A stretch of 51,819 bases of DNA from a phage. How positions within the stretch are numbered: the stretch's first letter is position 1; every line of letters starts with the position of its first letter. Of the stretch, positions 1 to 49,743 are shown in pieces. The DNA lies in assembly GCA_020279385.1 (NCBI GenBank), contig GCA_020279385.1_4133.1; one strand, written 5' to 3'. The position numbers were made by a program, and so were the translations under genes. The notes beneath the pieces were generated by a model. It saw nothing but the letters and a program-made list of their open reading frames with translations. It ran no database searches and had not been told where the DNA came from.

Positions 1-1528
1 AATTTCTTTCTTCCAGCATTGGAAGCAAGTGCCCTTCTATCCTCTTCATTACGCCAGCCTGACCAACGAAAGGTTTTACCTTTCTCGCTGATTCGTACAG
101 GGCGCGAATATTCAGGATCCCTTTGTTCGCCTTGCCGTGCCTCGTGATCAATTCAATCAATTTGCCCATTTCAGCATCATCACCAGCATAACCAGAAGCA
201 TTTGCGGCGCTAATGTATGTTTTGCTCAATTCCTGAAACATGATCAACGCCTCTTGCATTGTTTCCACGTCGATCTCTTTCGACTTCTGCGGGTATCCAG
301 CAGGATTAAACCAGTTGCGGATAACATGCAGGACGGAAGCAAGCCTGATCACCTGTTTATCCATTTTACCAAGCGCACCGCGTAACATTGTATGAGAATA
401 CTTTCCTCCGTCTGCAAGATGCGGTTCCATATCCTGGCGAGCAATGTTGAGCACTCGCATAGCTGAACGGCTTATTTTCAGCGATATATTTGATTCGCTC
501 ATGATGTTATGCACCAATTGATAATATTGGGCTTTCAATTCAGAATCCACCGCCTCATAGGTAGAATCACCATTTTCATCAATGAATGAGCGACGGCCTA
601 AGAATGATTCCTCGCGGACCAACAAAAAACGCTCACTAACACCGATGCCTCGCGATCCAGCGTCCATGATTCCGCTTATCGTTTCATCCTGGGCTATAAC
701 GCTCATACATCCAAGCGCGCGAAAACTCATATTATTGTCAGCATTAGCACGGGCAATTGATACGTGACCATTATCCCACGCCTTAAGCACTAGCTCACTG
801 TTAGTCTTCCTTTCGCTATTTGCATAGGTCAAGCCTAACAGACTGTTAATACTTGTTGCTTCGTCAGATATTACGGCAAAGTTACCTTGCTTGTTGTTGA
901 TTTTCGCCAAGCCTTCTGGAGTTGTATCTGAAACAGGAAAAGTTATATCACACATTTTTTCCAGCTTTTCCTCCAGATCCTCTTTTTCCTGGTATAGAGA
1001 TTTCATATCAGCGCCGGATCTTTCGCTTTTCATCTCCTTTGCAAGACCTGCCAGCTTTGCCTGTATTTTCTTTCTTTCCTTGCGGCGTTGCTCGTTGATC
1101 TTCTCAACTTCCGCAATCATCGGAGCGATAGCCATGCTGTTGATCGCAGATTTACCAGTTGACGGCGGCTGGCTTGTAACGACGTAAAGCGCAGTCGGCT
1201 GATCGGTTCCGTGATAGTCAACCGTAAAACGTCCAAGCATAGCGGCAGAAATGCAGCCGATAAAGTGCATGTAAGCCGATGATTCAGGGAATTGAACGGA
1301 TCGCGCAATGCTGCGTGATAACTTGCCGACAACATCAATATCATTACCAAGAGAAATAACGGGGTAGCGATCGTGACCGCTATTCACATCCTTTACGTCG
1401 CCCCAAAAGCTGGACGACTGGCGATAGCCGTTAGCCTGAATTGATACGCGAACTGGTGAAAGGTTCTGGCTTTCAGCCATAGCGATTATTTGCTGTGGAG
1501 TTAATTTGTTCGTTTCTAATGAAAACAT
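1..1528 (-). CDS. Large hypothetical protein, at least 509 aa in window; C-terminus runs off the window start
   Basis: Uninterrupted minus-strand frame from ATG at 1528-1526 (AAGGAG RBS upstream) to position 1; absent from the ORF track because it has no in-window stop; function unknown. Confidence 0.7.
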   Translation of the reverse strand, partial: MFSLETNKLTPQQIIAMAESQNLSPVRVSIQANGYRQSSSFWGDVKDVNSGHDRYPVISLGNDIDVVGKLSRSIARSVQFPESSAYMHFIGCISAAMLGRFTVDYHGTDQPTALYVVTSQPPSTGKSAINSMAIAPMIAEVEKINEQRRKERKKIQAKLAGLAKEMKSERSGADMKSLYQEKEDLEEKLEKMCDITFPVSDTTPEGLAKINNKQGNFAVISDEATSINSLLGLTYANSERKTNSELVLKAWDNGHVSIARANADNNMSFRALGCMSVIAQDETISGIMDAGSRGIGVSERFLLVREESFLGRRSFIDENGDSTYEAVDSELKAQYYQLVHNIMSESNISLKISRSAMRVLNIARQDMEPHLADGGKYSHTMLRGALGKMDKQVIRLASVLHVIRNWFNPAGYPQKSKEIDVETMQEALIMFQELSKTYISAANASGYAGDDAEMGKLIELITRHGKANKGILNIRALYESARKVKPFVGQAGVMKRIEGHLLPMLEERN

Positions 1529-1580: not shown

Positions 1581-1602
1581 GTTTTGTCAAAAAGTGCTAT
1601 TT
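1581..1602 (-). promoter_or_regulatory. Copy of conserved intergenic element AATAGCACTTTTTGTTAAAAC (variant), about 55 nt upstream of the 1528 start
   Basis: Read directly: reverse complement matches the element found in about 19 copies. Confidence 0.5.
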
Positions 1603-2200: not shown

Positions 2201-2254
2201 GATCAGATCTCCTTTGTTTGTTCGATGTGATTATGCCAGGTTTTTACACCTGGC

Positions 2255-2276
2255 TTTTAACAAAAAGTGCTATTTT
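2255..2276 (-). promoter_or_regulatory. Conserved intergenic element copy; contains the TAG stop of the 2270-2956 gene
   Basis: ttttaacaaaaagtgctatttt on plus strand; hairpin ccaggt/acctgg and CATAAT lie between it and the 2200 start. Confidence 0.5.
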
Positions 2277-2956: not shown

Positions 2957-3473
2957 GATTTTTATGATACCCCAATTCATTCTCGGCTTTACGTTTTGCG
3001 GCAACAGCATCTCCAAAACTGGAGAAACAACCTATATAAATCCTACTTCCTCGCTTTCCGCTTCCAACCCTTACAATCCACTTGCCATGTTTATTTTTAT
3101 GCACACCTGGTATGCCACTTGTATTGTTTTTCTGCTTTGATGTGTTTCGCATATTTCCTTTGTGATCTTTTAACTCAAAGTTTATTGCTCTGTTATCAGT
3201 CGTAATGTGATTTACGTGATCAACCTCCATTCCTTCCGGTATAGGCCCATAGTGCATTTCATAGCATATTCTATGAACTTTCAGGTTATAACGTTTTCCG
3301 TTTACAGTAAGTGCGGTTTCTAAATATCTGCCACCACTACCCAAAGAGCCAACCTCATTACCAGCATTACAAGCATTCCATTGTTTAACTCTTGATTGGT
3401 GAATATCTTTTCTTTCTTTCCAGAACAGCTTTCCGGTTTCTGGATTGTATGTAAAGTAATCGTGCCAATTCAT
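2946..3473 (-). CDS. HNH homing endonuclease with AP2-like DNA-binding region
   Basis: HNH-type His/Asn residues (EVDHVNH..N) plus C-terminal basic domain; paralog of 48048-48533; GAGGTGA RBS. Confidence 0.7.
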   Translation of the reverse strand: MNWHDYFTYNPETGKLFWKERKDIHQSRVKQWNACNAGNEVGSLGSGGRYLETALTVNGKRYNLKVHRICYEMHYGPIPEGMEVDHVNHITTDNRAINFELKDHKGNMRNTSKQKNNTSGIPGVHKNKHGKWIVRVGSGKRGSRIYIGCFSSFGDAVAAKRKAENELGYHKNHGK

Positions 3474-3481
3474 TCATCACC

Positions 3482-3706
3482 TCAAAACGGAAAACAGCGC
3501 GCACAACTAGGATCGAAATCGCATCCACAATCATTAACAATCATAGTGGGATCTGCAAATATTGCGCTTGATTCAAGATCCATATCCATATCACCTAAAG
3601 CCTCATCAAGAGTCTTAATTTTATATGCCACTTCAAGCGCCGCCTCTTTATTTAGTCCGGCATCTTCTGCCATTTGAAGGCGCTCAAAAAATCCGTCTTG
3701 ACTCAT
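3482..3706 (-). CDS. Hypothetical acidic protein (74 aa) with C-terminal Cys cluster
   Basis: ORF with ATG start; CGCDFDPSCARC motif. Confidence 0.5.
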   Translation of the reverse strand: MSQDGFFERLQMAEDAGLNKEAALEVAYKIKTLDEALGDMDMDLESSAIFADPTMIVNDCGCDFDPSCARCFPF

Positions 3707-3819
3707 CGCATAATCCCCTTAATAACAGCCAAGATAATAGCCAGGCCAGCAGCAGTAACCAAAAAGCCAACCGCGCCAATAATCGAATAAAAAAAGAAAT
3801 CAATAGCCTTATCTATCAT
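3703..3819 (-). CDS. Possible small membrane peptide (38 aa)
   Basis: Short ORF MIDKAIDFFFYSIIGAVGFLVTAAGLAIILAVIKGIMR with one hydrophobic helix; stop overlaps the next start (ATGCGATGA); RBS spacing poor. Confidence 0.3.
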   Translation of the reverse strand: MIDKAIDFFFYSIIGAVGFLVTAAGLAIILAVIKGIMR

Positions 3820-3860
3820 TTCCACCTCATTTAAAAGGCGGCAAAACGCCGCCATATTAA

Positions 3861-4088
3861 TTAAAGAGCACGCCAACTTTGAATATAGAAAGCGTTTTCT
3901 TCCAGTAATTCTTTTAACTGATCTTTATTGTATTTGCGCACCTTACCGCCTGGATGGATACCAATAAGATAGCCGCCTTTGCCCTCGGTGATAGTGATTT
4001 GGCTAATTCCACAAGACTTATCAAGTTTTACAGCCACGCGGTGATGAGCGTCAATAGTTGACACAATGTTTAAAACTTTTGCTTTCAT
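3861..4088 (-). CDS. Hypothetical protein (75 aa)
   Basis: ORF with GAGGAT RBS. Confidence 0.5.
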   Translation of the reverse strand: MKAKVLNIVSTIDAHHRVAVKLDKSCGISQITITEGKGGYLIGIHPGGKVRKYNKDQLKELLEENAFYIQSWRAL

Positions 4089-4196
4089 TTAAATATCCTC
4101 AATTGAAATATGAATGGCGTCGTGCTCTTTTTCCGTCGCCGCCGTAATGGTCATTTGCAGCCGATACCATCCATGCATTTTTGAAAATAAATAGCC

Positions 4197-4409
4197 TCAT
4201 TTCTTATTTTTCATCTTAAATTTATGGCCTGGAACACCAGCACCAATATACCCATCGTTGTATTCCATCAAATAAAGGTGAATACCATTATCTGAAATTA
4301 CATGAGGATCTTCTTTGAGATTTCCCATTAGTGGATATTCTTTTTCGCGCGTAAATTTCCAAATTGAGTTATAAGTTTCTACGCATTTAAGTTTTAATTT
4401 CTTTGTCAT
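4197..4409 (-). CDS. Hypothetical protein (70 aa)
   Basis: ORF coupled to the upstream gene. Confidence 0.5.
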   Translation of the reverse strand: MTKKLKLKCVETYNSIWKFTREKEYPLMGNLKEDPHVISDNGIHLYLMEYNDGYIGAGVPGHKFKMKNKK

Positions 4410-4690
4410 TATGCGATACCAGTTACGTTAAAACTTACAGCCTTTGTTGCGCTAAATACATAAGCATCAACAGCGCCGCCAAATACACGAATTTTACCCT
4501 GGCCGTACTGCGCATTCATATTTCGCCAAACCGTTCTATTAGAGCAGAATGCGCTACCAGTCTTAATAAGCGTATCCATCTCTTTTCTTAGATCGCGATA
4601 GTCCAGCCAGAATCTAAAGGCACGCTGTTTAATTCGCGCCGCCTTGATTTTTTCTCTTGCGCTATTGAAATCATTCTTTTCGTATGCCAT
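4409..4690 (-). CDS. Hypothetical protein (93 aa)
   Basis: ORF with GGAG RBS. Confidence 0.5.
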   Translation of the reverse strand: MAYEKNDFNSAREKIKAARIKQRAFRFWLDYRDLRKEMDTLIKTGSAFCSNRTVWRNMNAQYGQGKIRVFGGAVDAYVFSATKAVSFNVTGIA

Positions 4691-4887
4691 TAAATGATCT
4701 CCATGTATGTTTCAAAGCCATTTAACTTGAACAGGTCGTTTTCACATTTGCGCACGTTCCAAGTTAGCCCTGAGTGGTACGCATCCATATCATCAAGGTC
4801 AATGGTGATTTCAGCACCTTTCTTAAACAAACCTTTTTCGTGAGACTTGTCGCGCTTAACAACTTTAACATCAACCTGATTTTCCAT
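4690..4887 (-). CDS. Hypothetical protein (65 aa)
   Basis: Track ORF begins at GTG 4938; internal ATG at 4887 has GAGGAT RBS. Confidence 0.5.
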   Translation of the reverse strand: MENQVDVKVVKRDKSHEKGLFKKGAEITIDLDDMDAYHSGLTWNVRKCENDLFKLNGFETYMEII

Positions 4888-4942
4888 CTTTAAATCCTCG
4901 CTTGTTGTCGATGGGTGTAATATACCATTCAGGCGCACATCG

Positions 4943-4965
4943 TTTTTAACAAAAAGTGCTATTTA
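4943..4965 (-). promoter_or_regulatory. Conserved intergenic element copy immediately after the stop of 4963-5226
   Basis: ttttaacaaaaagtgctattta read on plus strand. Confidence 0.5.
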
Positions 4966-5226
4966 GTCCAGGAATTCGATTTCACGCTCTCCAGTTAACG
5001 GATCCACAAGCCAGAATCCGAGCGGTTCGCCGTGAACACCGCCATAGAATCCAAGCGCTGTCAGATCTTCACCTTTAACGAATACCAGGTTTCCGCTACG
5101 GCTTACGTGAGAAACGTTAACGATAACCGGAAATGTGCGATCCTTAAATGCAGGCCGCAGGGCGTAACATCCGTTGTTGAGCAAACGTGCTTTGCGCTTA
5201 ACTGGAATAGGTGCATTAATTTTCAT
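4963..5226 (-). CDS. Hypothetical protein (87 aa)
   Basis: ORF with AAGGAG RBS. Confidence 0.55.
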   Translation of the reverse strand: MKINAPIPVKRKARLLNNGCYALRPAFKDRTFPVIVNVSHVSRSGNLVFVKGEDLTALGFYGGVHGEPLGFWLVDPLTGEREIEFLD

Positions 5227-5452
5227 GGTTATTACTCCTTATCGTAAAGATTTAAAGACGTATAGTTTATTGCGGTAACTATATATCCGCATTGTTATTT
5301 CTCGCAGTGCAATATATTCCTTCCTGTTTTCCGGAAGACTGGCGAGCAACAACAGGCAGTATTTATAAGCGCGGTCAAGATTTCTTTCCGTGCCCCTGCA
5401 ATATCCCTTGTTGCGCCTGGAACGGTACAGCCATAACAATTTCTTGAACATT

Positions 5453-5662
5453 TCAGATACGCCCATACAGATCACAGACTTCGTTGATAAAATTGCTTTG
5501 CGCCCCTTTGTTGTCACGCTCAAGAATTGCGCGGCATTCAAACTTATGATTATGCACGATGACTACAACCATGTTTTCAGGCATTGAGCGGTTATAGCGT
5601 TGCGCATCAGTGATTAAAACATCCATACCCATCTCATGTGCTTTCTTGATCACATCCAACAT
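5453..5662 (-). CDS. Hypothetical protein (69 aa), paralog of 5650-5916
   Basis: ATG at 5662 with AGGAG RBS; C-terminal NFINEVCDL matches ADFINDVCLL of the neighbour. Confidence 0.5.
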   Translation of the reverse strand: MLDVIKKAHEMGMDVLITDAQRYNRSMPENMVVVIVHNHKFECRAILERDNKGAQSNFINEVCDLYGRI

Positions 5663-5916
5663 TTTTTCTTCTCCTGCAATAAGCAAACATCATTGATAAA
5701 ATCAGCACGGCCCTTAATGTTGCTGATGTGGAGCGTCTTTTCAGCGTACAGGCCATCACCTTCAATCACGATCATTACGCGAGTCGGTTTATTCACGGGC
5801 GCACACGAAAAGAGTGGGCGCGCCGGAAGAAATTTAGTAGCCACATCCAGGTTAGCCCTGGCGGCCCTGCAAAATGCCTCCGCCAGATCCAAATCATTTT
5901 CGGTAATCACCGCCAT
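5650..5916 (-). CDS. Hypothetical protein (88 aa), paralog of 5453-5662
   Basis: ATG with GAGGAG RBS; shared VxIEGD...FINDVC pattern. Confidence 0.5.
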   Translation of the reverse strand: MAVITENDLDLAEAFCRAARANLDVATKFLPARPLFSCAPVNKPTRVMIVIEGDGLYAEKTLHISNIKGRADFINDVCLLQEKKKCWM

Positions 5917-6188
5917 TACTTCTTGATCTCCTCACTGATAAATTTCAGCACCTGACGCAAGAAAACCTCGTTGTTGATAGTCGCTGGCAATTCTTCCTTC
6001 ACTTCTTGCGGCAGATAGATATTGCCGTGCCAGGTCAAGCAATCGTAGTTGATACGATAAGAGCAAAGCCACTCGCAATCGTTATCTGCTTCCCAAATGC
6101 AGAGTTGCAGAACATCGCCAAAATCTTCAACAGTCAGATCCAGACCGTGACGCTTAGCGAAGTTGAAAGTGGTTTTGCTGATGTTCAT
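5916..6188 (-). CDS. Hypothetical protein (90 aa), first gene of the leftward block
   Basis: ATG with AGGAG RBS. Confidence 0.55.
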   Translation of the reverse strand: MNISKTTFNFAKRHGLDLTVEDFGDVLQLCIWEADNDCEWLCSYRINYDCLTWHGNIYLPQEVKEELPATINNEVFLRQVLKFISEEIKK

Positions 6189-6269: not shown

Positions 6270-6298
6270 GACGGTTAGCGCCAGGATTGCGATCTAAA

Positions 6299-6390
6299 TA
6301 ATCAAAAGTAATCATTCGTAATCAAATCACGTCAAAATGATGATTGCCTTTGCAAATTTGATGAGAAAAGTAATCACGTTTAATCATTGG
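6299..6390. repeat. Iteron-like direct repeats of (G)TAATCA at about 10-bp spacing
   Basis: TAATCA at about 6299, 6309, 6319, 6371, 6381 plus inverted tgatgattg at about 6338. Confidence 0.5.
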
Positions 6391-6560
6391 TTGCAGGGGA
6401 GATAGTGAAACCTTCCCCTCTTTCCTCACTTTTCCGCCCGGCTGTCAGTGGTTGTTGTCTTTTGTTCACCCCTGTTACCGATTTCAGGCGGCGTGTTTCC
6501 GCGCGGTTTTCCGGTGTAGCGAAAACGGAAAAAACAAAAAAAATCCTATATAATACATTG

Positions 6561-6750
6561 AAAATAAAGATTATTTATTTATATATATCTATAATGTTTT
6601 CTTTTTGTTCTCACTGTTACAGTGCTTTTTTTTGGGTGTGGTGTGGTTGTGTGTTGGTATATATGGATAGTTGCGCGCGCGGCGGATTGCATATGTATAT
6701 ATACTTTTTCCGGCGGATTGCGTTAACAGCGTGAACAGAAAAATAACAGC
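6561..6750. repeat. AT/GT-rich non-coding element A, homologous to 36796-36974
   Basis: Shared blocks ttatttatttat, GT-rich tgggtgtggtgtggttgtg, catatgtatatata..ccggcgg, gaacagaaaaataaca. Confidence 0.6.
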
Positions 6751-6822
6751 CCTGAAATCAACAACTTGCGCATGATTTTGTAGTTTTTCGATATTGGTAA
6801 CGTTTTGAATACAACAAAAACA

Positions 6823-6850
6823 TTGACACGCACCAAATAGCTTTTATAAT
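6823..6850 (+). promoter_or_regulatory. Consensus sigma70-type promoter for the rightward early block
   Basis: TTGACA, 16-nt spacer, TATAAT, followed by GGAGGAAAGG RBS and ATG 6882. Confidence 0.65.
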
Positions 6851-6881: not shown

Positions 6882-7346
6882 ATGGAACAGAAGACCACTA
6901 AGGACTATTGCGATTGGCTTCGCGAGCTTGGTCGCCGCCTGGCTAGTGGCGATATTGAAGAGTATAAAATGTCACTAATTGACCTGGCCGGAATGTTAAG
7001 CGGTGACGACTGCTACAAGATCACGCGCAGTTCATCCTACAGCCGGACCATTATCAACCGCGTTCCAGAAGTAAGGGCCGCAGGTCGGGTAAGCATCAAG
7101 GTAGAGGAAACGGAAGATGATAAATTTTACGTTTTCCGCATGGTCCGCGAATCGAAAAGGAAAATCATCACACCCGAAGAATTGCCAGCCATCAAGGCAA
7201 GGGCGATCAAAAAGTTTGCCGATCGCTTACTGGCAGCAATCCCGAATATCGTTGACCTGGAAGGGGATAAACTGGCTGGGGCTTGCGAGGGCGTAAGCCG
7301 CTACCAGGATATGATCCGCGAAATCATCAAAGAGGAGGAGCAATAA
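6882..7346 (+). CDS. Hypothetical early protein (154 aa)
   Basis: Internal ATG with GGAGGAAAGG RBS; the upstream track ATG overlaps the -10 hexamer. Confidence 0.6.
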   Translation: MEQKTTKDYCDWLRELGRRLASGDIEEYKMSLIDLAGMLSGDDCYKITRSSSYSRTIINRVPEVRAAGRVSIKVEETEDDKFYVFRMVRESKRKIITPEELPAIKARAIKKFADRLLAAIPNIVDLEGDKLAGACEGVSRYQDMIREIIKEEEQ

Positions 7347-36353: not shown

Positions 36354-36388
36354 TTAAAAAGGGGCTTTTGCCCCTTTATTTTTATTTA
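36354..36388. terminator. Bidirectional terminator between convergent genes
   Basis: A-run, ggggcttttgcccc, T-run. Confidence 0.6.
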
Positions 36389-36613
36389 CAGACTGCAATC
36401 AGCGTTTTTAAAGTTATCAATGCTCACCCACTGAAAATTAAATGGATAGCCAGCCTTGACAAGAGTGCGGTCGCCAACTCGTTTTGCCCCAAAGATAGCA
36501 ACTGAATACTGCATTCCGCTATTTTCATAAATAGCCGTGCATTCACGTTTAGGCATATTTGCGCAACCAGTCAGCGCAACGGCTGCGATTAAAACTGCAA
36601 TTAACTTTTTCAT
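36386..36613 (-). CDS. Outer-membrane lipoprotein, candidate Cor-like superinfection exclusion protein
   Basis: MKKLIAVLIAAVALTGC lipobox; small; antisense immediately after tail genes; AAGGAG RBS. Confidence 0.5.
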   Translation of the reverse strand: MKKLIAVLIAAVALTGCANMPKRECTAIYENSGMQYSVAIFGAKRVGDRTLVKAGYPFNFQWVSIDNFKNADCSL

Positions 36614-36667
36614 CTTTTCATCTCCTTTGTTGTTGTTGGTTCAACTATACACGATTTTAAGGCGCGC

Positions 36668-36688
36668 GTTTAGCAAAAAGTGCTACTT
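36668..36688 (-). promoter_or_regulatory. Conserved intergenic element copy upstream of the lipoprotein gene
   Basis: gtttagcaaaaagtgctactt on plus strand. Confidence 0.5.
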
Positions 36689-36795
36689 GTTATTTTTTGT
36701 TTTACGGTGTTATCGAATTTAAGACGGCGTAAATTTAGCTCAAATTTTAGCCAATATAAGAACAATAAATAATCAATAAAATAGATATATACATA

Positions 36796-36974
36796 TAAAA
36801 TCAATAGTTTATTTATTTATGTATGTATATTTGTTTTTTCTTGTTATCTGTGTTTCTTGTGGTTTTGGTTGTTTGTGGTGATTTTTCTTTCTGAGTATCT
36901 GCATGTGCCATCATTCATGTGTATGTATATAATCCGGCGTATCTTAGAGAACAAGGGAACAAGAAAAATAACAC
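36796..36974. repeat. AT/GT-rich non-coding element B, homologous to 6561-6750
   Basis: tttatttatttatgtatgtat, tgtggttttggttgtttgtggtg, catgtgtatgtatataatccggcg, gaacaagaaaaataaca. Confidence 0.6.
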
Positions 36975-37055
36975 ATGTTAATCATTAACTTACGCGTCAG
37001 ATTTGTTTTCTTGCCATCTTAGAACGTTTAGAAAACAGAAAAAACAAAACAACTA

Positions 37056-37083
37056 TTGACTAAATCAACCAAATGGCTACAAT
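37056..37083 (+). promoter_or_regulatory. Sigma70-type promoter for the recombination module
   Basis: TTGACT, 16-nt spacer, TACAAT; spacer shares CCAAAT.GC with the 6823 promoter. Confidence 0.6.
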
Positions 37084-37113
37084 GCACACACAAAGCAACG
37101 AGGAGCATTAAAG

Positions 37114-39431: not shown

Positions 39432-39970
39432 TCTAACGTGGTTGGTTTGTTTACCAGTGCCGCTACAACCGCTTTTAACTCGTCAATTTCTTTTCTCATC
39501 TCATCGTTTTCCGCTTTCAGTTTCTTAACGTGGTGAATCAGTGGAACAGTGAGGCGGTCATACATAACGCCTTCCGCCACCATGCCATTACTTGAAGCAA
39601 TGGCAGGATCTTCTCCTTCTTGCAGCGGTCGCCAGTGAACGTACTCCGGCGCAATTTCTCCAACTTCCTCTGCAATCAGTCCGTACCATCCCCAATCTTT
39701 ACGGTCGCTTTCACAGGTTGACCGATACCACACAGGACGCATTTCAAGCATCAGATCCGCATATTCATCAATAACCGATTCTACGCTGCGCTTATAACGA
39801 GAAGAGGAAGTGGAGCGTAAAACTTGCGACACTCCAGCATTTGGATCAAGCCATAAGTTTGCTGATTGAGCGGTTGTGTTTAGTCTAAACAAATAAAATG
39901 CCTCGTTACCAGTCAGGGGGGTAAAAATTGCCACCATACCTTCCGCTATCCAACTCGGACGATAGATCAT
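39428..39970 (-). CDS. Protein with C-terminal peptidase S74-like intramolecular chaperone domain; probably the 3' part of a frameshifted fibre gene
   Basis: SDRKD...YGLIAEEVGEIAPEYV...YDRLTVPLI...coiled coil; no credible RBS; 65-nt overlap with upstream ORF across a G6/C6 run. Confidence 0.45.
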   Translation of the reverse strand: MIYRPSWIAEGMVAIFTPLTGNEAFYLFRLNTTAQSANLWLDPNAGVSQVLRSTSSSRYKRSVESVIDEYADLMLEMRPVWYRSTCESDRKDWGWYGLIAEEVGEIAPEYVHWRPLQEGEDPAIASSNGMVAEGVMYDRLTVPLIHHVKKLKAENDEMRKEIDELKAVVAALVNKPTTLD

Positions 39971-40166
39971 TTTGTTTTAGATACAGCTTCAACTTATTGT
40001 CAACATCAGTAGTTGATGCTTTTCCTGCAACATCCTGTTTTAGTGTCGAAACATCACTTTTCAGCTTCGTTATATCACCAGGAATAGTAGCAACATCCTG
40101 TTTTAGTGTTGAAACATCATTTTTCAGCCTCGTTATATCACTAGGTATAACAGTTACTGTAGCCAT
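39906..40166 (-). CDS. Small fibre-like protein with tandem 21-aa repeats; probably the 5' part of a frameshifted gene
   Basis: AAGGAG RBS; DITRLKNDVSTLKQDVA / DITKLKSDVSTLKQDVA repeats. Confidence 0.5.
   Translation of the reverse strand: MATVTVIPSDITRLKNDVSTLKQDVATIPGDITKLKSDVSTLKQDVAGKASTTDVDNKLKLYLKQNDLSSELDSGRYGGNFYPPDW
40028..40150 (-). repeat. Tandem 63-bp coding repeats
   Basis: caacatcctgttttagtgtcgaaacatcacttttcagcttcgttatatcacc repeated with few changes. Confidence 0.6.
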
Positions 40167-40178
40167 TTTCCTAACTCC

Positions 40179-40457
40179 TTAAGCCCATTCTCTAATCGGC
40201 TGATCTAACTCAACCACGTAGCCATTAAAAATTACGGCATCAAACTCATCATCAATGATTCGCACATTAACGAAATAGCCGTCGTTCTTTCGCGCAATCT
40301 CCTCGCCATCGTCAGATCGTGCAATTACTGTATAAGTATTGCCGATTACATCGAGCAGGATTGCATCCTGAATGGATTCGTTATCATCCCAATTAATTTT
40401 TCCTAAAAAGGCCGAAAACTCGGCCTTGTCTGCAAATTTTAATGTTAAATCACGCAT
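40179..40457 (-). CDS. Hypothetical protein (about 92 aa) between fibre genes
   Basis: ATG overlaps the tail fibre stop (TAATG). Confidence 0.45.
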   Translation of the reverse strand: MRDLTLKFADKAEFSAFLGKINWDDNESIQDAILLDVIGNTYTVIARSDDGEEIARKNDGYFVNVRIIDDEFDAVIFNGYVVELDQPIREWA

Positions 40458-42424
40458 TAAACAATTTCCCCCAATTGATGATCTGTTAGCGCCTTGTGCC
40501 ATATACGGAAGTTTCTAACGTGCCCGAAAAGATGGCGTTCGCCTGTACTTGTTTGTCCGCCAATCCTTATAGTGGCCGTCGATCTTATGTATCTCCATTC
40601 CGTTTTTGTTTCGCTTGATATTCTGGCATTACTTACACAGCAATTATTGTAATCACTCTTTACTCTCATTCCCATGATCATCTTTTTTAGTTTCGCATTC
40701 TCGTAAACCCTTCGGTTTGAGTTACCTATATCGCAATAAGGGAATCCGTCATTATCTCCCCCAGCAGACCCAAAAGCAAGAATAATTGCCGCTCCGGTTT
40801 GATGGCCGACTGTATCAAAAACACGCGGCGCTGCGTTTGGCGTTATACTCCAGTTTTTATGAGCTTCCACAAGCACTGTAAAAGGCAAATTGTAAAGGTT
40901 GTTTTTTATTGGCAATGTAACCATATCGCTTGCCCTTGTTGCCGGAGTTCCATCAGTGATAACCAGAGACGAAGCAGATGATCCGTTTTCAACTTGGGCG
41001 GTAGCTATAGTCATAAATTGACCTGCGGTAATATCCTGGCCTGCCCTTGCTATCATCTCAACGCGAGCATACATCTTTATATCTTCTGGTGCTCTATATG
41101 TACCCTGGAATAGTACCCATCCACCTGATTCTTGCTTTACATCATACGTCAAATTAACCCCTCCAGTCACATCAAGAGTGACAAGATCAAGCATCACATC
41201 AGCTATAAATATGTTTTCTTGTCCATCAGGACTGAGTTTGGAGAATCGCAATCTTAACCTAACTGGTGAAGAATATTCCTCGCCGATTCTTGCGCGTATT
41301 GAGATAGTTCCATACTCACCATTCGCAACATCCACTACGCGAGATGTACCAGTTGAAATTGCTGTGATCGGGCCAGTATCTTGACTTTCTTTATAAGTGA
41401 ATTTAGCGGAAGTTATACCAAATTCATCTGTAGAATCAGCTGATACGTCCAGTCTGTTTACGTTTCTATTCCATTTGTTCGGTGAATTGCTATTTATGAA
41501 GTTGTTTGTTCTCTGCCCTTCAATCAGCAATCCATCTCTTTCAAAACGCGGTTCATCAATTGCTGCAACAGTAAGAATACCTGATTTGTTAATGTATGTT
41601 GCAGTTGATGCACGTTTAAATTTGACAATCTTGTCGCCCGGCATCGTGATCTCATCATCACCTATGACAATCTTTTTGTATGACGGCGAGAATCCGGTGA
41701 TCATATCCAGGGAATCATTAAATGGTATCCACACGTCAGGCAGAGGCTGCAATAAATCTTTGTAAGGTTCTTCGGCCTGCTTTGCGTATTCCTCCGCTTG
41801 ATCTCTAGCACTTTCAGCACCTGTCTTTGCGGCATTCGCAGCATCACGCGCAGTTTCAGCGCCTTTTCTTGCAGTTTCAGCGCCAGTCTTTGCGGTATTT
41901 GCAGCGTCACGCGCGGATTCAGCGGCAGCCTTTGCAGTATCAGCACCTTTCTTGCTATTCTCTGCATTTGTTGCGCTTGTCTTTGCGTTATTCTCGCTAG
42001 TTTTAGCTGCCTTCTGGCTTGCTGCGGCTGCGTCAGCATTTGTCTTTACGTCTTCCTGGATCTTCTGTAGCTTATCCCAATCAAAATCCTTGATGATCTC
42101 AATAAATCCAGCAAACTCCGATTCCTTCCCCTGGTAATAACGCAACGTTTCCGCTACGTCTTGCGCAAGACCGTCAACCGTTAACGAGTCATGAAGCAAG
42201 ATCAGGTAATTTGTCTTCTTGACTACCGCGCCGCCAGTAGTAATTGCGCGAATGCTTGTATCGCTAATCACTTCCGTAATCACAGCAGCTTGCAAAGGTT
42301 GAGCAAGAAAGAAAATAGTTGCACCTGGGCGAATCAAGGTTAATTGCTCACGCCATTTTGTACCGTAACCAGTTACATAACCTTGCGCGTCCATAGACGC
42401 TTGGCCTTGTCTGTAAATCGCCAT
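40457..42424 (-). CDS. Tail fibre protein
   Basis: 655 aa from ATG 42424 (AGGAGG RBS); Ala/Thr/Lys-rich repeats; C-terminal lectin-like beta region. Confidence 0.65.
   Translation of the reverse strand: MAIYRQGQASMDAQGYVTGYGTKWREQLTLIRPGATIFFLAQPLQAAVITEVISDTSIRAITTGGAVVKKTNYLILLHDSLTVDGLAQDVAETLRYYQGKESEFAGFIEIIKDFDWDKLQKIQEDVKTNADAAAASQKAAKTSENNAKTSATNAENSKKGADTAKAAAESARDAANTAKTGAETARKGAETARDAANAAKTGAESARDQAEEYAKQAEEPYKDLLQPLPDVWIPFNDSLDMITGFSPSYKKIVIGDDEITMPGDKIVKFKRASTATYINKSGILTVAAIDEPRFERDGLLIEGQRTNNFINSNSPNKWNRNVNRLDVSADSTDEFGITSAKFTYKESQDTGPITAISTGTSRVVDVANGEYGTISIRARIGEEYSSPVRLRLRFSKLSPDGQENIFIADVMLDLVTLDVTGGVNLTYDVKQESGGWVLFQGTYRAPEDIKMYARVEMIARAGQDITAGQFMTIATAQVENGSSASSLVITDGTPATRASDMVTLPIKNNLYNLPFTVLVEAHKNWSITPNAAPRVFDTVGHQTGAAIILAFGSAGGDNDGFPYCDIGNSNRRVYENAKLKKMIMGMRVKSDYNNCCVSNARISSETKTEWRYIRSTATIRIGGQTSTGERHLFGHVRNFRIWHKALTDHQLGEIV
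41773..42013 (-). repeat. Low-complexity tandem repeats in tail fibre gene
   Basis: AKTSENNAKTSATNAENSKKGADTAKAAAESARDAANTAKTGAETARKGAETARDAANAAKTGAESARD. Confidence 0.55.
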
Positions 42425-42438
42425 TTGTAAAATCCTCC

Positions 42439-42458
42439 TAAATAGCACTTTTTGCTAA
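42439..42458 (+). promoter_or_regulatory. Conserved intergenic element copy, antisense to both flanking genes
   Basis: taaatagcactttttgctaa overlapping the tail fibre RBS; second partial copy taatagcatttt at about 42471. Confidence 0.45.
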
Positions 42459-42530: not shown

Positions 42531-43460
42531 TTATAGCAGTGATTCGGGCTTGTAGAGTTTTCTTTCTACGCCCTGTTTAAAATTATCGTTAACAGGCATC
42601 ATTATGTCAAGCCCTCTTTCCTCTGCCGCGATTATCACATCACGATCATCTTTCCGGCAGACTACGCGCATTCTTCTTTCTCCTTTATATCTATGCGCAA
42701 CCATTTCAAGATTTGAAGGAGTAAAACAGGCCCACACCTCTTGACCAGTTGATAAATGAACATGCTGAGAATCAACCCAATCAAGGCACAAATAGATCGT
42801 CTTATCTGTGCTACCTGTTTTAACAACAGATCCGCGCGTGTAGTCGCGAGCTAAAAACCAATCCTTTCCATCCTCATCAATGAAAAGCACGTTACACATT
42901 TCATCATCCAGCCCGTCATCATGCACCAGGTGACAAGGTAGCGCGTGAATGTATCGACCATCCTTGACGCCGCAATCATAATGACAATCTTCCGGCGGAT
43001 ATATCCCTTCATAAACACTTAAAGGTGTGCGATCGAATTTTAATGTTTTTGCCATCACTTTTTCGCAGCATTCATGACTTGCCTGTTTCCCGAACGAGTA
43101 ACCAGAAGAACGCGAAGCGCGTTTGTTTGCTCTGATCCTGTAATCCTGCGGCACTTTTCCGAGGAATCGGCCCAAAATGTTGATGGCCTCGCTGTAAGGT
43201 TCGCCAGTTAATTTCATTAACCAACCGATCCCCGTGTCGTTGCCGCATACGTTGCAGATCGCGCCGCCGTCGCCCTCTTCATTTAGCTTATCAGTCCATC
43301 TAAAACGATCCTTACCGCCGCAGTGTGGGCAAGGTTGATGCTTTTTGTTGAAAACATCGCTATGCAGTCCGCAAATGCTTTGTAGTGCTTCACGCCATAA
43401 CCCCTTCATATATGGCAAAACATCTTCTTTCTGATAGGTCATAAAGTTTTCAGTATTCAT
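42531..43460 (-). CDS. DNA primase (zinc-ribbon containing)
   Basis: CPHCGG...CNVCG zinc-binding motif; start at internal ATG with GAGGT RBS. Confidence 0.6.
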   Translation of the reverse strand: MNTENFMTYQKEDVLPYMKGLWREALQSICGLHSDVFNKKHQPCPHCGGKDRFRWTDKLNEEGDGGAICNVCGNDTGIGWLMKLTGEPYSEAINILGRFLGKVPQDYRIRANKRASRSSGYSFGKQASHECCEKVMAKTLKFDRTPLSVYEGIYPPEDCHYDCGVKDGRYIHALPCHLVHDDGLDDEMCNVLFIDEDGKDWFLARDYTRGSVVKTGSTDKTIYLCLDWVDSQHVHLSTGQEVWACFTPSNLEMVAHRYKGERRMRVVCRKDDRDVIIAAEERGLDIMMPVNDNFKQGVERKLYKPESLL

Positions 43461-43515
43461 GGCAAACCTCAATAAAAAAGCCCAGCAAATATTATCATTT
43501 CGCTGAGCCTTATCA

Positions 43516-43992
43516 TTAGCTATTTGTGCTGTTATCACCTTTGTAGAATCGTCCGCCTGGTTCGTAGTCTGAATTTTTGACTACGCGCAACATCTCGTAT
43601 TTGTCGCAACGGGTAGTAAGAGGCTTACCGTTAGAATCAAACCGCAGATCTGGACGACAAAATGATGCGCGGTATCCTTTGCATCCATTATATTTGTAGT
43701 CGTTATGCACCTTTTGTGCTCCAGCGGCTGAAATCATACCACGCTTTCGCCATTGGTTAACGACTTGCTGAGATACGCGTAGACGTCGAGCCATAGCAGG
43801 AACACCGCCATAATACTCGATCAGAATATCCAAGCGAGATTTCAGGCTTGCTTTTACCTCATCTCGCAGGATAAGAAATCCGGTTCGGTGTTTTCGTGGC
43901 TTTTTGTCTTTACCTCGTCGCGTTCCGTTGTTACCGTTAATAGTGCGCTTGTCGATCTCACCCGTAGACACCGCAATTCGTGCATCTTTCAT
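43516..43992 (-). CDS. HTH DNA-binding protein
   Basis: Helix-turn-helix GGVPAMARRLRVSQQVVNQWRKRG; basic N-terminus; GAGGTGA RBS. Confidence 0.5.
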   Translation of the reverse strand: MKDARIAVSTGEIDKRTINGNNGTRRGKDKKPRKHRTGFLILRDEVKASLKSRLDILIEYYGGVPAMARRLRVSQQVVNQWRKRGMISAAGAQKVHNDYKYNGCKGYRASFCRPDLRFDSNGKPLTTRCDKYEMLRVVKNSDYEPGGRFYKGDNSTNS

Positions 43993-44002
43993 CTAGTCAC
44001 CT

Positions 44003-44023
44003 CATAGCATTTTTTGTTAAAAC
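44003..44023 (+). promoter_or_regulatory. Conserved intergenic element copy upstream of helicase
   Basis: catagcattttttgttaaaac, about 57 nt before ATG 44080. Confidence 0.5.
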
Positions 44024-44079
44024 AGTTTATTGTAATGAGTCTATTATATACTCCAAATGGCATTTTTTAAAGGTTTAAG

Positions 44080-48533: not shown

Positions 48534-48627
48534 GGATAGTTATCATGTGGCGCTTGTTTGTTCTACCGTTACCCGTTATCATCGCTGTTACAGTTATGTA
48601 CCATATAGTGATGAGATAGGTAGCAGA

Positions 48628-49743
48628 ATGAAAAATGTAAAAATTACAGATGAGCAATTCAAGATCGAACGGGCGGCGGGTAAGACATATAAACAGATCG
48701 CTCAAGAGTACGGAATGAATGTTAGAAGCGTCGAGCGTCGCGCGGCGCGTCTTGCAAAGCAAGGCCAGGTATCCACCATTGGAGCGCCTGGTTTTGGAGT
48801 TCATGGTGAGTCAGTAATGACTGACAAAGAAGGCAACATAATCCTAAAGTGGACTAAAACCAGCAAGGATAAAGAGCAATTAGAAGCATTAATGCGCGCA
48901 GCAATGGAGGCATTTAGCGAGGAAGTGCCGCGATTAGATCCGGTCCCATTACAGGAGCGCGACTATAACGAAACGCTTTCTTTGTATCCGATCTTTGACA
49001 TGCACTTAGGCGCTATGGCCCATAAGCACGAATGCGGCGAAAATTGGGATACTGCCACGGCAGAGCGCGTTATGAATAACTTTATCGACTATGCTTTAAT
49101 GTGCGCACCGGATAGCGAAAAGGCTGTCATCCTGATTGGTGGCGATATGCTGCATAGCGACGGCCTGGAGGCGGTTACACCTGCAAGCGGTCACGTACTG
49201 GATCAAGATAGTCGATATGCAAAATTGGTTTACGTTGCCATCCGTGCAATGCGACGCGCAATCAATAAAATGTTGTTAAAGCATAAACATGTTGAAGTCC
49301 AGATCGTAGAGGGAAATCATGACCAATCAGGAATGATTTGGCTACGCGCAGCGATGGCGGCAGCATATGAGAACGAGCCGCGCGTTTACGTTGATGTTTC
49401 TCCTCGCGTTGTTCACCACACGCAATACGGAAAAACTTTCCTTGCGTACCATCACGGGCACACAGTGCGTAAACCTGAGACTTTGCTAATGATGTGCGCG
49501 TCAGATTGGCGGGAGGACTTCGGAAACTCAAAAACGATGTATGCGCACGTAGGGCACTGGCATCACCAGACCGTAACAGAAACGTCGCTTGGCATCGTGG
49601 AGGTGCATAGCACCCTGGCGGCAAAAGACGCATACGCCGCGCGAGGTGGCTGGAGATCTCGACGCCGTGCGGCGGTTATCATTTACGACAAAGAGCATGG
49701 AGAAGTCGGGCGATTTGTTCACTATCCAGAAATGATGAATTGA
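48628..49743 (+). CDS. Metallophosphoesterase (calcineurin-like) with N-terminal HTH
   Basis: Motifs DMHLG, GGDMLHSDG, GNHD, HHGH, GHWHH; N-terminal HTH KTYKQIAQEYGMNVRSVERRAARL. Confidence 0.6.
   Translation: MKNVKITDEQFKIERAAGKTYKQIAQEYGMNVRSVERRAARLAKQGQVSTIGAPGFGVHGESVMTDKEGNIILKWTKTSKDKEQLEALMRAAMEAFSEEVPRLDPVPLQERDYNETLSLYPIFDMHLGAMAHKHECGENWDTATAERVMNNFIDYALMCAPDSEKAVILIGGDMLHSDGLEAVTPASGHVLDQDSRYAKLVYVAIRAMRRAINKMLLKHKHVEVQIVEGNHDQSGMIWLRAAMAAAYENEPRVYVDVSPRVVHHTQYGKTFLAYHHGHTVRKPETLLMMCASDWREDFGNSKTMYAHVGHWHHQTVTETSLGIVEVHSTLAAKDAYAARGGWRSRRRAAVIIYDKEHGEVGRFVHYPEMMN

What the first reader, a model, noticed from the sequence alone, without database searches (positions are those of the whole stretch)
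36796..36974. Element B: second copy of the AT/GT-rich block, upstream of the recombination module promoter
It lies between the antisense Cor-like lipoprotein gene and the exonuclease/Erf/SSB operon, again at a strand switch and ahead of a TTGACT-N16-TACAAT promoter. The pairing of a conserved upstream block with a strong promoter at both early transcription start regions suggests shared regulation, perhaps by a host factor or phage regulator that binds the block.
Basis: partly seen in the sequence, partly recalled or inferred. Interest (0 to 1): 0.55.

Follow-up and report, generated by a model that had tools for sequence, protein, structure and literature searches.

The report
Twin iteron-flanked origin-like early-promoter modules
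The AT/GT-rich block is real: it is one of two matching, conserved non-coding modules in T1-like phages, built like a replication origin and joined to a strong early promoter, so it gives a testable candidate for the unknown origin of this phage family.

Summary
Observation confirmed and extended. The window is a Warwickvirus-like T1-family (Drexlerviridae) coliphage.

- **Two copies.** Block B (36796-36974) is the middle of a ~400-bp non-coding module (36686-37084). It is collinear with module A (~6450-6850): 75% identity over 330 nt, z=7.2 against 10-nt block shuffles. Each module ends in a near-consensus sigma70 promoter.
- **Conserved.** In 7 genomes from five Drexlerviridae lineages, A and B are the most AT-rich spots. 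Here they are also the two least stable duplex segments.
- **Short repeats.** Each module carries helically phased 4-7-bp repeats in opposite orientation around the AT core (27 found, 6 expected). The repeat cores are conserved more than their surroundings.
- **Lineage-specific.** The repeat sequence differs by lineage: GAACA-type here, TGTAACA in T1, TGTAAT in a T1 relative, TATACA in Rtp-like phage, GTAAGAT in Klebsiella phage. A and B stay alike within each genome.
- **Likely binder.** The phage encodes a primase and an MCM-like DUF3987 helicase with a fast-evolving C-terminal winged helix.

This matches SaPI-type origins and P4 ori/crr. Best reading, inferred only: twin origin-like modules coupled to early promoters. 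A purely transcriptional operator array is the main rival. Small ORFs, known RNA families and simple A-tract curvature are not supported.

The parts
36644..36686 (-). Leftward promoter of the cor-like gene, of the phage-specific class: the 21-nt direct repeat (GTAGCACTTTTTGCTAAA, 36669-36686) followed 19 nt later by TATAGT (36644-36649). It forms the left border of module B.
   Evidence: 19 copies of the repeat in the window, with a -10-like hexamer 19-20 nt downstream in at least 14. The motif is described in TLS, function unknown (PMC11447400).
36688..36712 (+). Array L1: three TGTT[A/T] repeats spaced 10 bp apart (starts 36688, 36698, 36708).
   Evidence: Kept in 6, 11 and 9 of 11 Tempevirinae B sequences. 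The matching array in A starts at 6453, 6463, 6473.
36728..36742 (+). Box CGTAAATTTAGCTCA, found only in B modules.
   Evidence: present in the B modules of the window, SLUR29, A131 (one mismatch) and Klebsiella phage cp3 (two copies); absent from the A modules.
36760..36831 (.). AT-rich core, with a GAACA repeat at its left edge. It contains the second least stable 40-bp duplex window of the genome (36776-36815) and an IHF core consensus, AATCAATAGTTTA (36799-36811).
   Evidence: The same IHF-like core occurs in Henu7 modules A and B.
36832..36890 (+). Array L2: TGTT repeats starting at 36832, 36842, 36851 (and 36870), running into the GT-rich tract. Its orientation is opposite to the AACA repeat on the other side of the AT core.
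   Evidence: Kept in 10, 11 and 10 of 11 relatives. The matching array in A starts at 6595, 6606, 6615.
36916..36939 (.). Second short AT block (CATGTGTATGTATATAAT) followed by the GC clamp CCGGCG.
   Evidence: Aligned with A 6690-6712. It holds a promoter-like TATAAT that is not conserved in relatives.
36949..36973 (+). Array R1: GAACA, GAACA, TAACA (starts 36949, 36957, 36969), the reverse complement of the TGTT repeats.
   Evidence: The first two are kept in 10 and 11 of 11 relatives. The matching array in A starts at 6724, 6733, 6744 and includes GTGAACA.
36979..36991 (+). Conserved box AATCATTAACTTA, one mismatch from the IHF consensus. It is homologous to the perfect IHF consensus in A (6756-6768).
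37004..37051 (+). Conserved TTTGTT (37004) and array R2 (AAACA at 37033, 37042, 37047) abutting the -35 hexamer. The array may also act as an A-rich UP-like element.
   Evidence: 37004, 37034 and 37043 are kept in 11, 11 and 10 of 11 relatives.
37056..37083 (+). Sigma70 promoter TTGACT-N16-TACAAT of the exonuclease VIII / Erf / SSB operon.
   Evidence: Nearly invariant in 42 of the 43 related loci aligned. Equivalent to TLS promoter P51.
6450..6850 (+). Module A, the paralogous copy: arrays L1 (6453-6477, includes TGTTCACC at 6463), AT core (least stable 40-bp window 6547-6586), L2 (6595-6619), GT-rich tract, R1 (6724-6748), IHF consensus (6756-6768), R2 (6813-6822), promoter TTGACA-N16-TATAAT (6823-6850).
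1..1528 (-). Candidate trans factor: MCM-like DUF3987 replicative helicase with a C-terminal winged helix. Its 3' end is cut off by the window start; the full-length protein is P0015, 526 aa.
42531..43538 (-). Phage primase (zinc ribbon of the primase-helicase type), the partner of the helicase.
   Evidence: Pfam Zn_Ribbon_Prim, E=4.9e-15. Weak tblastn match to the N-terminal primase region of P4 alpha, E=0.017.
6882..7346 (+). DUF7174 protein, the first gene downstream of promoter A. An alternative candidate for the repeat-binding protein (predicted winged-helix-like fold).

Best explanation
Element B is one of two paralogous, co-evolving cis-acting modules of T1-family phages. A lies at about 6450-6850 and B at 36686-37084.

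Each module has an AT-rich core that is the easiest DNA in the genome to melt. The core is flanked by arrays of short repeats (iterons), spaced about one helical turn apart, in opposite orientation on the two sides. IHF-like sites are also present. Each module ends in a near-consensus sigma70 early promoter that fires away from the core.

Most likely mechanism (inferred, not shown):
1. The modules are the phage's replication origins, or an origin plus an auxiliary cis site as in P4 ori/crr.
2. Early in infection a phage-encoded protein binds the iterons. The best candidate is the MCM-like DUF3987 helicase, acting through its C-terminal winged helix as SaPI Rep self-loading helicases do.
3. IHF bending, together with the negative supercoiling left behind RNA polymerase leaving the strong promoter, helps open the AT core.
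4. The helicase and the phage primase then start replication.
5. The same bound protein, sitting next to the -35 hexamer, may also modulate the early promoter, which would couple early transcription to replication.

Shown: the anatomy, the conservation, the lineage-specific iterons and the nature of the helicase.
Inferred: the binding, the melting and the origin activity.
For: 1. The paralogy is real. A and B are 75% identical over 330 nt, z=7.2 against composition-preserving shuffles.

2. The pair is a family-wide feature. In 7 genomes (window, T1, TLS, Henu7, SU57, A131, Klebsiella cp3) A and B are the lowest-GC 120-bp windows; in TLS they rank 1st and 3rd.

3. In this window they are the two least stable 40-bp and 100-bp duplex segments, more than 4 sd above the genome mean.

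4. Iterons are enriched and ordered. [GTA]AACA/TGTT[TAC] occurs 27 times in 753 bp against 6.0 expected (p=3e-10). The repeats sit in arrays of three spaced 9-11 bp apart, with the same order and spacing in A and B.

5. The iteron cores are under selection. Across 11 Tempevirinae B sequences, core columns are conserved at 0.87 against 0.68 for the rest of the module (Fisher p=1e-8).

6. The iterons are lineage-specific.
   - T1: TGTAACA, 6 copies in A+B and 0 elsewhere in the genome (p=6e-15).
   - SU57: TATACA, 13 in the modules against 15 elsewhere.
   - Webervirus cp3: ATCTTAC, 13 against 5 elsewhere (p=1e-21).
   - A T1 relative (L030) has switched all copies from TGTAAC to TGTAAT: 0 and 10 copies, against 7 and 3 in T1.

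7. A and B evolve in concert. All five same-genome A-B pairs score z=6.8-9.4, while orthologous pairs between subfamilies mostly score z<4.

9. The helicase's C-terminal domain diverges faster than its core, most strongly where the iterons differ: cp3 39% against 71%, T1 50% against 63%, and T1 versus L030 67.5% against 83.6%.

10. The known analogues match.
   - SaPI origins: 5-6-nt iterons, 6-12 copies, a central AT-rich region, at least two iterons on each side in opposite orientation, bound by the winged helix of a self-loading Rep helicase (PMC9371898).
   - P4: TGTTCACC repeats at 10-11-bp spacing in two separate loci, ori and crr. The same octamer occurs at 6463 and GTGAACA at 6731.

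11. The origin of T1-like phages has not been identified (PMC11447400).
Against: - There is no experimental or marker-frequency evidence of initiation at A or B.
- The iterons in this window are short and degenerate (a 4-5-nt core). Part of their enrichment could come from the T-rich and A-rich composition of the module.
- The helicase gene is not adjacent to either module, unlike SaPI rep and its ori.
- The faster divergence of the helicase's winged helix follows overall phylogenetic distance, so it is not an independent covariation test. SU57's putative recognition region resembles that of Tempevirinae although its repeats differ.
- Henu7 uses GTAACA in A but GAACA in B, so recognition cannot be very strict.
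- In T1, module A has iteron-like motifs overlapping the -10 hexamer and the early transcribed region. That looks like an operator.
- The tight, conserved link to the only consensus sigma70 promoters fits a purely transcriptional role equally well.
- GC skew follows gene orientation only and gives no origin signal.
Confidence: 0.5

Rival explanations
1. Purely transcriptional control region. The repeat arrays are operators for a phage-encoded regulator. Candidates are the winged-helix-like DUF7174 protein encoded right after promoter A, or the Cro/YdaS-like regulator at 43516-43992. Together with IHF, this regulator would activate or later shut off the two immediate-early sigma70 promoters in a coordinated way. 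There would be no role in replication.
For: - Both modules end in the strongest sigma70 promoters, and array R2 abuts the -35 hexamer.
- In TLS these are two of only three canonical sigma70 promoters.
- In T1 module A, iteron-like motifs overlap the -10 hexamer and about +20.
- DUF7174 has a predicted winged-helix-like fold, is the first product of promoter A in 6 of the 7 genomes examined, and diverges fast (21-43% identity).
- Lineage-specific sites and concerted evolution of A and B are expected for any phage-encoded binder.
Against: - Shut-off or activation does not need about 350 bp, four arrays, or the least stable DNA in the genome.
- Webervirus cp3 keeps the paired AT core and iterons but lacks DUF7174. 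Its B module precedes a promoter of the direct-repeat type.
- T1's iteron does not occur at the third early promoter or anywhere else in its genome.
- The Cro-like regulator is well conserved (50-72% identity) while the iterons change completely.
- The architecture matches SaPI-type origins point by point.
Confidence: 0.3
2. Host-factor or DNA-shape enhancer. The block is an extended UP-like, intrinsically curved or IHF/Fis/ArcA-bound upstream region. It simply makes the early promoters strong and needs no phage-specific binder.
For: - A-rich tracts lie immediately upstream of the -35 hexamer (37033-37051; 6813-6822).
- An IHF consensus occurs in each module, and a conserved IHF-like box lies between arrays R1 and R2.
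- TGTTA repeats resemble ArcA half-sites (my own knowledge, not tested).
Against: - The 10-11-bp periodicity of AA/TT is unexceptional across B: 0.1-0.8 against a genome mean of 0.36 and a 99th percentile of 1.3.
- The repeats differ completely between phages of the same host, and switch in concert. A host protein with fixed specificity would not produce that.
- The IHF core in the AT block is present in only about half of the relatives, and the genome-wide count is at chance level (5 found, 3.8 expected).
- The spacing is 10 bp, not ArcA's 11 bp.
Confidence: 0.08
3. The block encodes something: small proteins (several database records annotate up to four 'hypothetical proteins' here) or a small RNA.
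For: - A 43-aa ORF lies at 36857-36988, and some GenBank records annotate hypothetical proteins under the match.
- The plus strand folds somewhat better than shuffled sequence (z=-3.0).
Against: - The ORF is interrupted by a stop codon even in a relative whose intergenic region is 90% identical. In more distant relatives it has stops, frame shifts or no start codon. No ORF is shared by position among 11 relatives.
- No Rfam family matches anywhere in the window.
- The conservation pattern consists of short DNA motifs, not a reading frame or paired helices.
- The minus-strand fold (z=-1.7) and DNA hairpin scores are not significant.
Confidence: 0.03
4. The block is related to DNA packaging (a secondary pac site), or is a neutral AT-rich duplicate kept alike only by gene conversion.
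For: - Module A lies next to the genome ends, that is the pac region, in the T1 and TLS records.
- A and B evolve in concert, which gene conversion alone could produce.
Against: - The TGATT/GATTTGATT-type repeats next to A, where the T1 and TLS records start, lie outside the shared module and are absent from B in this phage.
- The iteron cores are conserved selectively. In T1-like phages the AT block is nearly invariant while its flanks vary. Both argue for function.
Confidence: 0.04

Closest known systems
SaPI replication origins with their Rep self-loading (MCM-like) helicases
   Same: - Iterons of 5-6 nt, 6-12 copies.
- A central AT-rich region with iterons on both sides in opposite orientation.
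- Iteron sequence specific to each lineage.
   Different: - Here the module is present twice per genome, 30 kb apart.
- It is not adjacent to the helicase gene.
- It is fused to a sigma70 early promoter.
- It has four arrays rather than two.
- The helicase belongs to Pfam DUF3987, and its binding to the repeats is untested.
Satellite phage P4 ori and crr with the alpha protein
   Same: - Two separate cis regions carry the same repeat.
- The repeat TGTTCACC (GGTGAACA on the other strand) sits in arrays at 10-11-bp spacing next to A/T-rich DNA.
- The same octamer occurs at 6463, GTGAACA at 6731, and GTGAACA occurs in both TLS modules (4 copies in all).
- The phage primase is weakly alpha-like.
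   Different: - No homologue of the helicase or origin-binding part of P4 alpha was found by tblastn.
- The helicase here is of the MCM type, not the SF3 type.
- Most copies in this window are degenerate (GAACA, TAACA, AAACA).
- Other family members use unrelated repeats.
Iteron-plasmid origins of the pSC101 / F / R6K type (from my own knowledge)
   Same: - An AT-rich unwinding region with an IHF site.
- Phased iterons.
- A promoter at the edge of the origin that is contacted by the initiator.
   Different: - No Rep-family initiator was detected.
- No DnaA boxes were seen by eye (no formal scan was run).
- The iterons are much shorter (5-7 nt against 17-22 nt).
Promoter-linked phage origins such as T7 phi1.1A/B plus its AT-rich region, T4 oriF and ori(uvsY), and oriC with gidA transcription (from my own knowledge)
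   Same: A strong promoter sits next to an easily melted AT-rich segment. Transcription could help open it.
   Different: - The AT core lies upstream of the promoter, not downstream, so an R-loop primer made from this promoter is unlikely.
- Activation would have to act through supercoiling.
UP elements and curved upstream DNA of strong phage early promoters, for example in T5 (from my own knowledge)
   Same: A-rich DNA lies from about -38 to -60 upstream of a near-consensus promoter.
   Different: - The conserved unit extends to about -370.
- It holds lineage-specific repeats.
- It shows no exceptional A-tract phasing.

Membership tests
SaPI-type origin (iterons + AT-rich centre + self-loading Rep helicase) | Multiple (6-12) short penta- or hexanucleotide iterons. 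| tested here: met
   There are 16 TGTT/AACA cores in B; 10 are kept in at least 9 of 11 relatives. In other lineages the repeats are 6-7-mers with strong enrichment.
SaPI-type origin (iterons + AT-rich centre + self-loading Rep helicase) | A central AT-rich region with at least two iterons on each side, in opposite orientation. | tested here: met
   AACA repeats lie left of the AT core and TGTT repeats right of it in TLS, Henu7 and window module A. In window B the left side has one clear copy (36760). The core is the least stable DNA in the genome.
SaPI-type origin (iterons + AT-rich centre + self-loading Rep helicase) | The element encodes an MCM-like initiator helicase with a C-terminal winged helix, plus a primase. 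| tested here: met
SaPI-type origin (iterons + AT-rich centre + self-loading Rep helicase) | The origin lies immediately downstream of the rep gene. | tested here: not met
   The helicase gene is at 1-1528 (minus strand), about 5 kb from A and about 15 kb from B around the circular map (35 kb in window coordinates).
SaPI-type origin (iterons + AT-rich centre + self-loading Rep helicase) | The helicase binds the iterons, melts the AT region, and the DNA supports replication. | not testable with these tools
   Only indirect support: the C-terminal domain diverges faster than the core, in parallel with iteron changes.
P4 ori/crr system | Type 1 repeat TGTTCACC in arrays at two separate loci. | tested here: inconclusive
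   P4 annotation confirmed. The window has one exact TGTTCACC (6463) and one GTGAACA (6731), both in A. B has only degenerate cores.
P4 ori/crr system | An alpha-type protein combining primase, SF3 helicase and a C-terminal origin-binding domain. | tested here: not met
   tblastn finds only a weak match to the primase part (aa 20-228, E=0.017). The helicase is MCM-like.
UP element / curved upstream activating DNA | A/T-rich DNA from about -40 to -60. | tested here: met
   An A-rich tract lies at 37033-37051, directly upstream of the -35 hexamer.
UP element / curved upstream activating DNA | A-tracts phased with the DNA helix. | tested here: not met
   The 10-11-bp AA/TT periodicity across B is not exceptional. 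Neither feature accounts for conservation out to about -370.
Protein-coding or known RNA gene | A conserved reading frame, or a match to a curated RNA family. | tested here: not met
   Stop codons and frame shifts in relatives. No Rfam match at gathering thresholds.

The most novel reading that the evidence does not exclude
T1-family phages carry two co-evolving, bifunctional modules that are both origin and early promoter. In each, an MCM-like self-loading helicase recognises lineage-specific iterons around the genome's weakest duplex. This would locate the long-unknown replication origin(s) of the classic phage T1 family. It would also show replication initiation physically and functionally coupled to the only host-type early promoters, with iteron and winged-helix specificity switching between close relatives much like plasmid incompatibility groups.
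Probability: 0.4. Interest if true: 0.7.

Novelty: new member of a known kind. Interest (0 to 1): 0.6.

Why it matters
T1 is one of the seven classic T phages, and its family (Drexlerviridae) is very common in phage collections and therapy candidates. Yet a 2024 re-annotation by specialists found no replication origin in the closely related T1-like phage TLS and listed basic regulatory questions about T1-like phages as open (PMC11447400).

These twin modules give a concrete, cheap-to-test candidate for both the origin and the control of immediate-early transcription. They also come with natural specificity variants, such as TGTAAC versus TGTAAT, which are well suited to swap experiments.

If the modules are origins:
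- They would be targets for engineering, for example in conditionally replicating phages or origin-based plasmids.
- They could affect superinfection or incompatibility between related phages.
- They would extend the 'self-loading MCM-like helicase plus short iterons' mode of initiation from staphylococcal islands to a major group of virulent enterobacterial phages.

Tried and rejected
- **Small ORFs in the block.** Rejected: stop codons and frame shifts in relatives.
- **Known RNA families.** None matched in the whole window. RNA folding gave z=-3.0 on the plus strand and -1.7 on the minus strand, explained by the partial symmetry of the AACA and TGTT arrays. DNA hairpin or cruciform z-scores for four AT cores were not significant.
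- **Simple curvature.** AA/TT periodicity at 10-11 bp is unexceptional in B.
- **GC skew as an origin signal.** It follows gene orientation only.
- **Homologue of the P4 alpha origin-binding domain.** tblastn matched only the primase part. PDB sequence searches with the primase and the DUF3987 helicase gave nothing useful. The 665-aa helicase is RadD-like, not an initiator.
- **DUF7174 as a universal binder.** Weakened: there is no homologue in Webervirus cp3 and the fold matches are weak.
- **Cro-like regulator as the iteron binder.** Not favoured: it is too conserved.
- **Collecting more A modules through DUF7174.** Whole genomes were fetched instead.
- **Literature searches that gave nothing useful.**. 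One search failed on a frame error and on a term that was too short.
- **DnaA boxes.** None seen by eye in B; no formal scan was run.

Full report
**What the window is.** The 51.8-kb window is a nearly complete genome of a T1-family siphovirus (Drexlerviridae, Tempevirinae, Warwickvirus-like). The intergenic DNA around the finding is 93-98% identical to phages SLUR29, atuna, tonijn and SECphi27. Genes 1-6188 run leftward. A long rightward block follows: small early genes, packaging, head and tail. Next comes a leftward cor-like lipoprotein gene (36386-36613), then the rightward exonuclease VIII / Erf / SSB operon from 37114.

**Checking the observation.**
- TTGACT-N16-TACAAT lies at 37056-37083.
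- The other copy, Element A, lies upstream of TTGACA-N16-TATAAT at 6823-6850, also at a strand switch.
- blastn of the B region against the whole window finds A as the only collinear match, in two segments of 75% and 71% identity. A global alignment gives 75% identity over 330 aligned positions and runs through the promoter.
- AT-rich DNA aligns easily, so I shuffled B within 10-nt blocks to keep its local composition. The real score is 176 against a mean of 76.5 (sd 13.8, maximum 124, 0 of 500 shuffles).

The similarity is therefore real paralogy. The unit is larger than stated, about 36686-37084.

**Conservation across the family.** I fetched whole genomes of T1 (Tunavirinae), TLS and Henu7 (Tempevirinae), SU57 (Braunvirinae, Rtp-like), A131 and Klebsiella phage cp3 (Webervirus).
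- In all seven genomes the most AT-rich 120-bp windows are at the same two places: upstream of the first rightward early gene (A) and upstream of exonuclease VIII (B). In TLS they rank 1st and 3rd.
- In this window they are also the two least stable 40-bp and 100-bp duplex segments by nearest-neighbour energy.
- In TLS, B lies between two rightward genes, so the strand switch is not essential.
- The 2024 TLS re-annotation lists only three canonical sigma70 promoters: P01 (in A), P51 (in B) and P57 (regulator/primase). That paper found no replication origin and does not describe these modules (PMC11447400). No other paper in the searchable library addresses a Drexlerviridae origin.

**Anatomy of the module.** The core motif [GTA]AACA, or TGTT[TAC] on the other strand, occurs 27 times in the 753 bp of the two modules against 6.0 expected from the rest of the genome (p=3e-10). 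The copies form arrays of three, spaced 9-11 bp apart, in the same order in both modules:

| Feature | Module B | Module A |
|---|---|---|
| L1 (TGTT) | 36688, 36698, 36708 | 6453, 6463, 6473 |
| AT core | 36760-36831 | about 6545-6594 |
| L2 (TGTT) | 36832, 36842, 36851 | 6595, 6606, 6615 |
| R1 (AACA) | 36949, 36957, 36969 | 6724, 6733, 6744 |
| R2 (AACA) | 37033, 37042, 37047 | 6813, 6818 |
| -35 hexamer | 37056 | 6823 |

- The 'GT-rich' part of the finding is array L2 and its extension.
- Across 11 Tempevirinae B sequences that are only 48-90% identical overall, the repeat-core columns are much better conserved than the rest of the module: 0.87 against 0.68, and 49 of 64 against 114 of 306 columns at 80% or more (Fisher p=1e-8). 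Ten cores are kept in at least 9 of 11 sequences.
- Each module has one match to the IHF consensus (6756-6768; 36799-36811). A conserved IHF-like box lies between R1 and R2. The genome-wide count of the consensus is at chance level.

**The repeats are lineage-specific and A and B evolve together.**
- T1 uses TGTAACA/TGTTACA: 6 copies in A+B and none elsewhere in its 48.8 kb (p=6e-15).
- SU57 uses TATACA with GTAAC. TLS uses GTGAACA and TGGAACA.
- The Klebsiella phage cp3 uses GGTAAGAT/ATCTTACC: 13 copies in the modules against 5 elsewhere (p=1e-21). Its A and B share 131 bp at 82% identity.
- A relative of T1 (locus L030) has replaced TGTAAC (0 copies) with TGTAAT (10 copies). T1 itself has 7 and 3.
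- All five same-genome A-B pairs are significantly similar (z=6.8-9.4). Orthologous modules from different subfamilies mostly are not (z<4).
- In T1-like phages the AT block is nearly invariant while its flanks vary.

This pattern is what one expects if both modules are read by the same evolving, and therefore phage-encoded, DNA-binding protein. It argues against a host factor of fixed specificity.

**Things the block is not.**
- The 43-aa ORF inside the block has a stop codon even in the relative whose intergenic region is 90% identical. No ORF is shared among relatives.
- No Rfam family matches. Fold scores are weak, or are explained by the opposed arrays.
- A-tract phasing is unexceptional.
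- The TGATT-type repeats beside A, where the T1 and TLS records begin (the pac region), lie outside the shared module.

**Candidate binding proteins and known analogues.** From memory, P4 alpha binds TGTTCACC in ori and crr. The P4 GenBank record confirms 6 and 10 such 'type 1' repeats at 10-11-bp spacing in two separate loci. The same octamer occurs at 6463, GTGAACA occurs at 6731, and GTGAACA is one of the TLS repeats.

- Only the primase part of alpha has a weak match in the window (E=0.017).
- The phage also encodes a DUF3987 protein (window 1-1528, cut by the window start; full length P0015).
- This agrees with Kazlauskas et al. 2016, who describe DUF3987 proteins as MCM-like phage replicative helicases with a C-terminal winged helix (PMC4889955). 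Helicase activity has been shown for one member (PMC11724360).
- SaPI Rep proteins are self-loading helicases. Their C-terminal winged helix binds 5-6-nt iterons, 6-12 per origin, placed on both sides of a central AT-rich region in opposite orientation (PMC9371898). That description fits the modules closely.
- The helicase's C-terminal domain diverges faster than its core, most strongly where the iterons differ: cp3 39% against 71%, T1 50% against 63%, SU57 59% against 76%, and T1 versus L030 67.5% against 83.6%. This is suggestive only, because it also follows phylogenetic distance.
- A second candidate is DUF7174, the first gene after promoter A. It has a predicted winged-helix-like fold with weak matches including RepE and evolves fast. 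It is missing from cp3.
- The Cro/YdaS-like regulator is too conserved to explain the changing repeats.

**Conclusion.** The finding is real, conserved and functional-looking. The most likely explanation (about 0.5) is that A and B are twin replication-origin modules, or an origin plus an auxiliary site as in P4. They would be recognised by the phage's MCM-like helicase, helped by IHF and by the negative supercoiling behind the strong early promoter, with possible feedback on that promoter. The main rival (about 0.3) is a purely transcriptional operator array for a phage regulator. Binding, melting and initiation are all inferred, and marker-frequency sequencing, origin-plasmid assays and footprinting would decide.

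Noticed in passing
19 sites, e.g. 7603, 8066, 9058, 10472, 11791, 13085, 44004, 46493, 47564 (+); 1600, 2273, 4962, 6267, 36686, 51306 (-): The 21-nt direct repeat ATAGCACnnnTTGnTAAA, whose function the TLS paper lists as an open question, is followed by a -10-like hexamer ((C/T)ATAAT) exactly 19-20 nt downstream in at least 14 of 19 copies. The spacer often holds a small GC-rich inverted repeat. The fixed geometry (22 nt from TTGnTA to the -10 hexamer, too long for ordinary sigma70 -35 recognition) suggests a phage-specific promoter class that needs a phage factor, in the manner of T4 MotA-box middle promoters.
   Followed up: partly
6285-6395: A cluster of TAATCA/TGATT-type repeats lies just left of module A. 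Similar GATTTGATT or TGATTG repeats occupy the same place in T1, TLS and Henu7, where the T1 and TLS records begin. This is probably the pac / small-terminase recognition region. The strongest AA/TT helical periodicity near A is here (start 6321).
   Followed up: partly
36728-36742; L052 (Klebsiella phage cp3) 15221 and 15484: The box CGTAAATTTAGCTCA, followed by an A/T run and CCAA, is shared almost exactly between module B of this coliphage and a Klebsiella Webervirus, which has two copies, each preceded by its own iterons. The box is absent from A modules and from T1, TLS, Henu7 and SU57.
   Followed up: partly
36905-36933: A promoter-like site GTGCCA-N17-TATAAT (10 of 12 consensus positions) lies inside the block. 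Its -10 hexamer is not conserved in relatives, so it is probably fortuitous.
   Followed up: partly
48547-49743: The Mre11-like 'DNA repair exonuclease' has an N-terminal helix-turn-helix. Matches to sigma70 region 4 and HTH_28 are weak (E=0.002-0.007). It is another possible DNA-binding protein of unknown target.
   Followed up: no
40027-40149 and 41804-41929: 63-nt tandem repeats (92% and 79% identity) lie inside leftward ORFs: 39906-40166, and the 40457-42448 ORF that matches the tail (stf) protein of SLUR29. They are coding repeats.
   Followed up: no
window ends (1 and 51819): The window is not a closed circle. The DUF3987 helicase gene runs off position 1, and its last ~14 codons are absent from the other end of the window. 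A closely related IMG/VR contig with an identical exonuclease protein is 51,880 bp (L005).
   Followed up: partly
L053 (MG065665, 'Campylobacter phage A131') and about 18 similar records: Records labelled as Campylobacter jejuni phages are ordinary Tempevirinae genomes. Their exonuclease is 81% identical to this coliphage's and they have the same A and B modules. A131 is marked UNVERIFIED, so the host attribution is doubtful.
   Followed up: no
44020-44075 (minus strand): The promoter of the regulator/primase operon (equivalent to TLS P57) has a perfect TATAAT but a weak -35 (TTTAAA) in this phage. It shares the 87-bp intergenic region with a divergent direct-repeat-type promoter for the RadD-like helicase. 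No TGTT/AACA arrays are evident there.
   Followed up: partly
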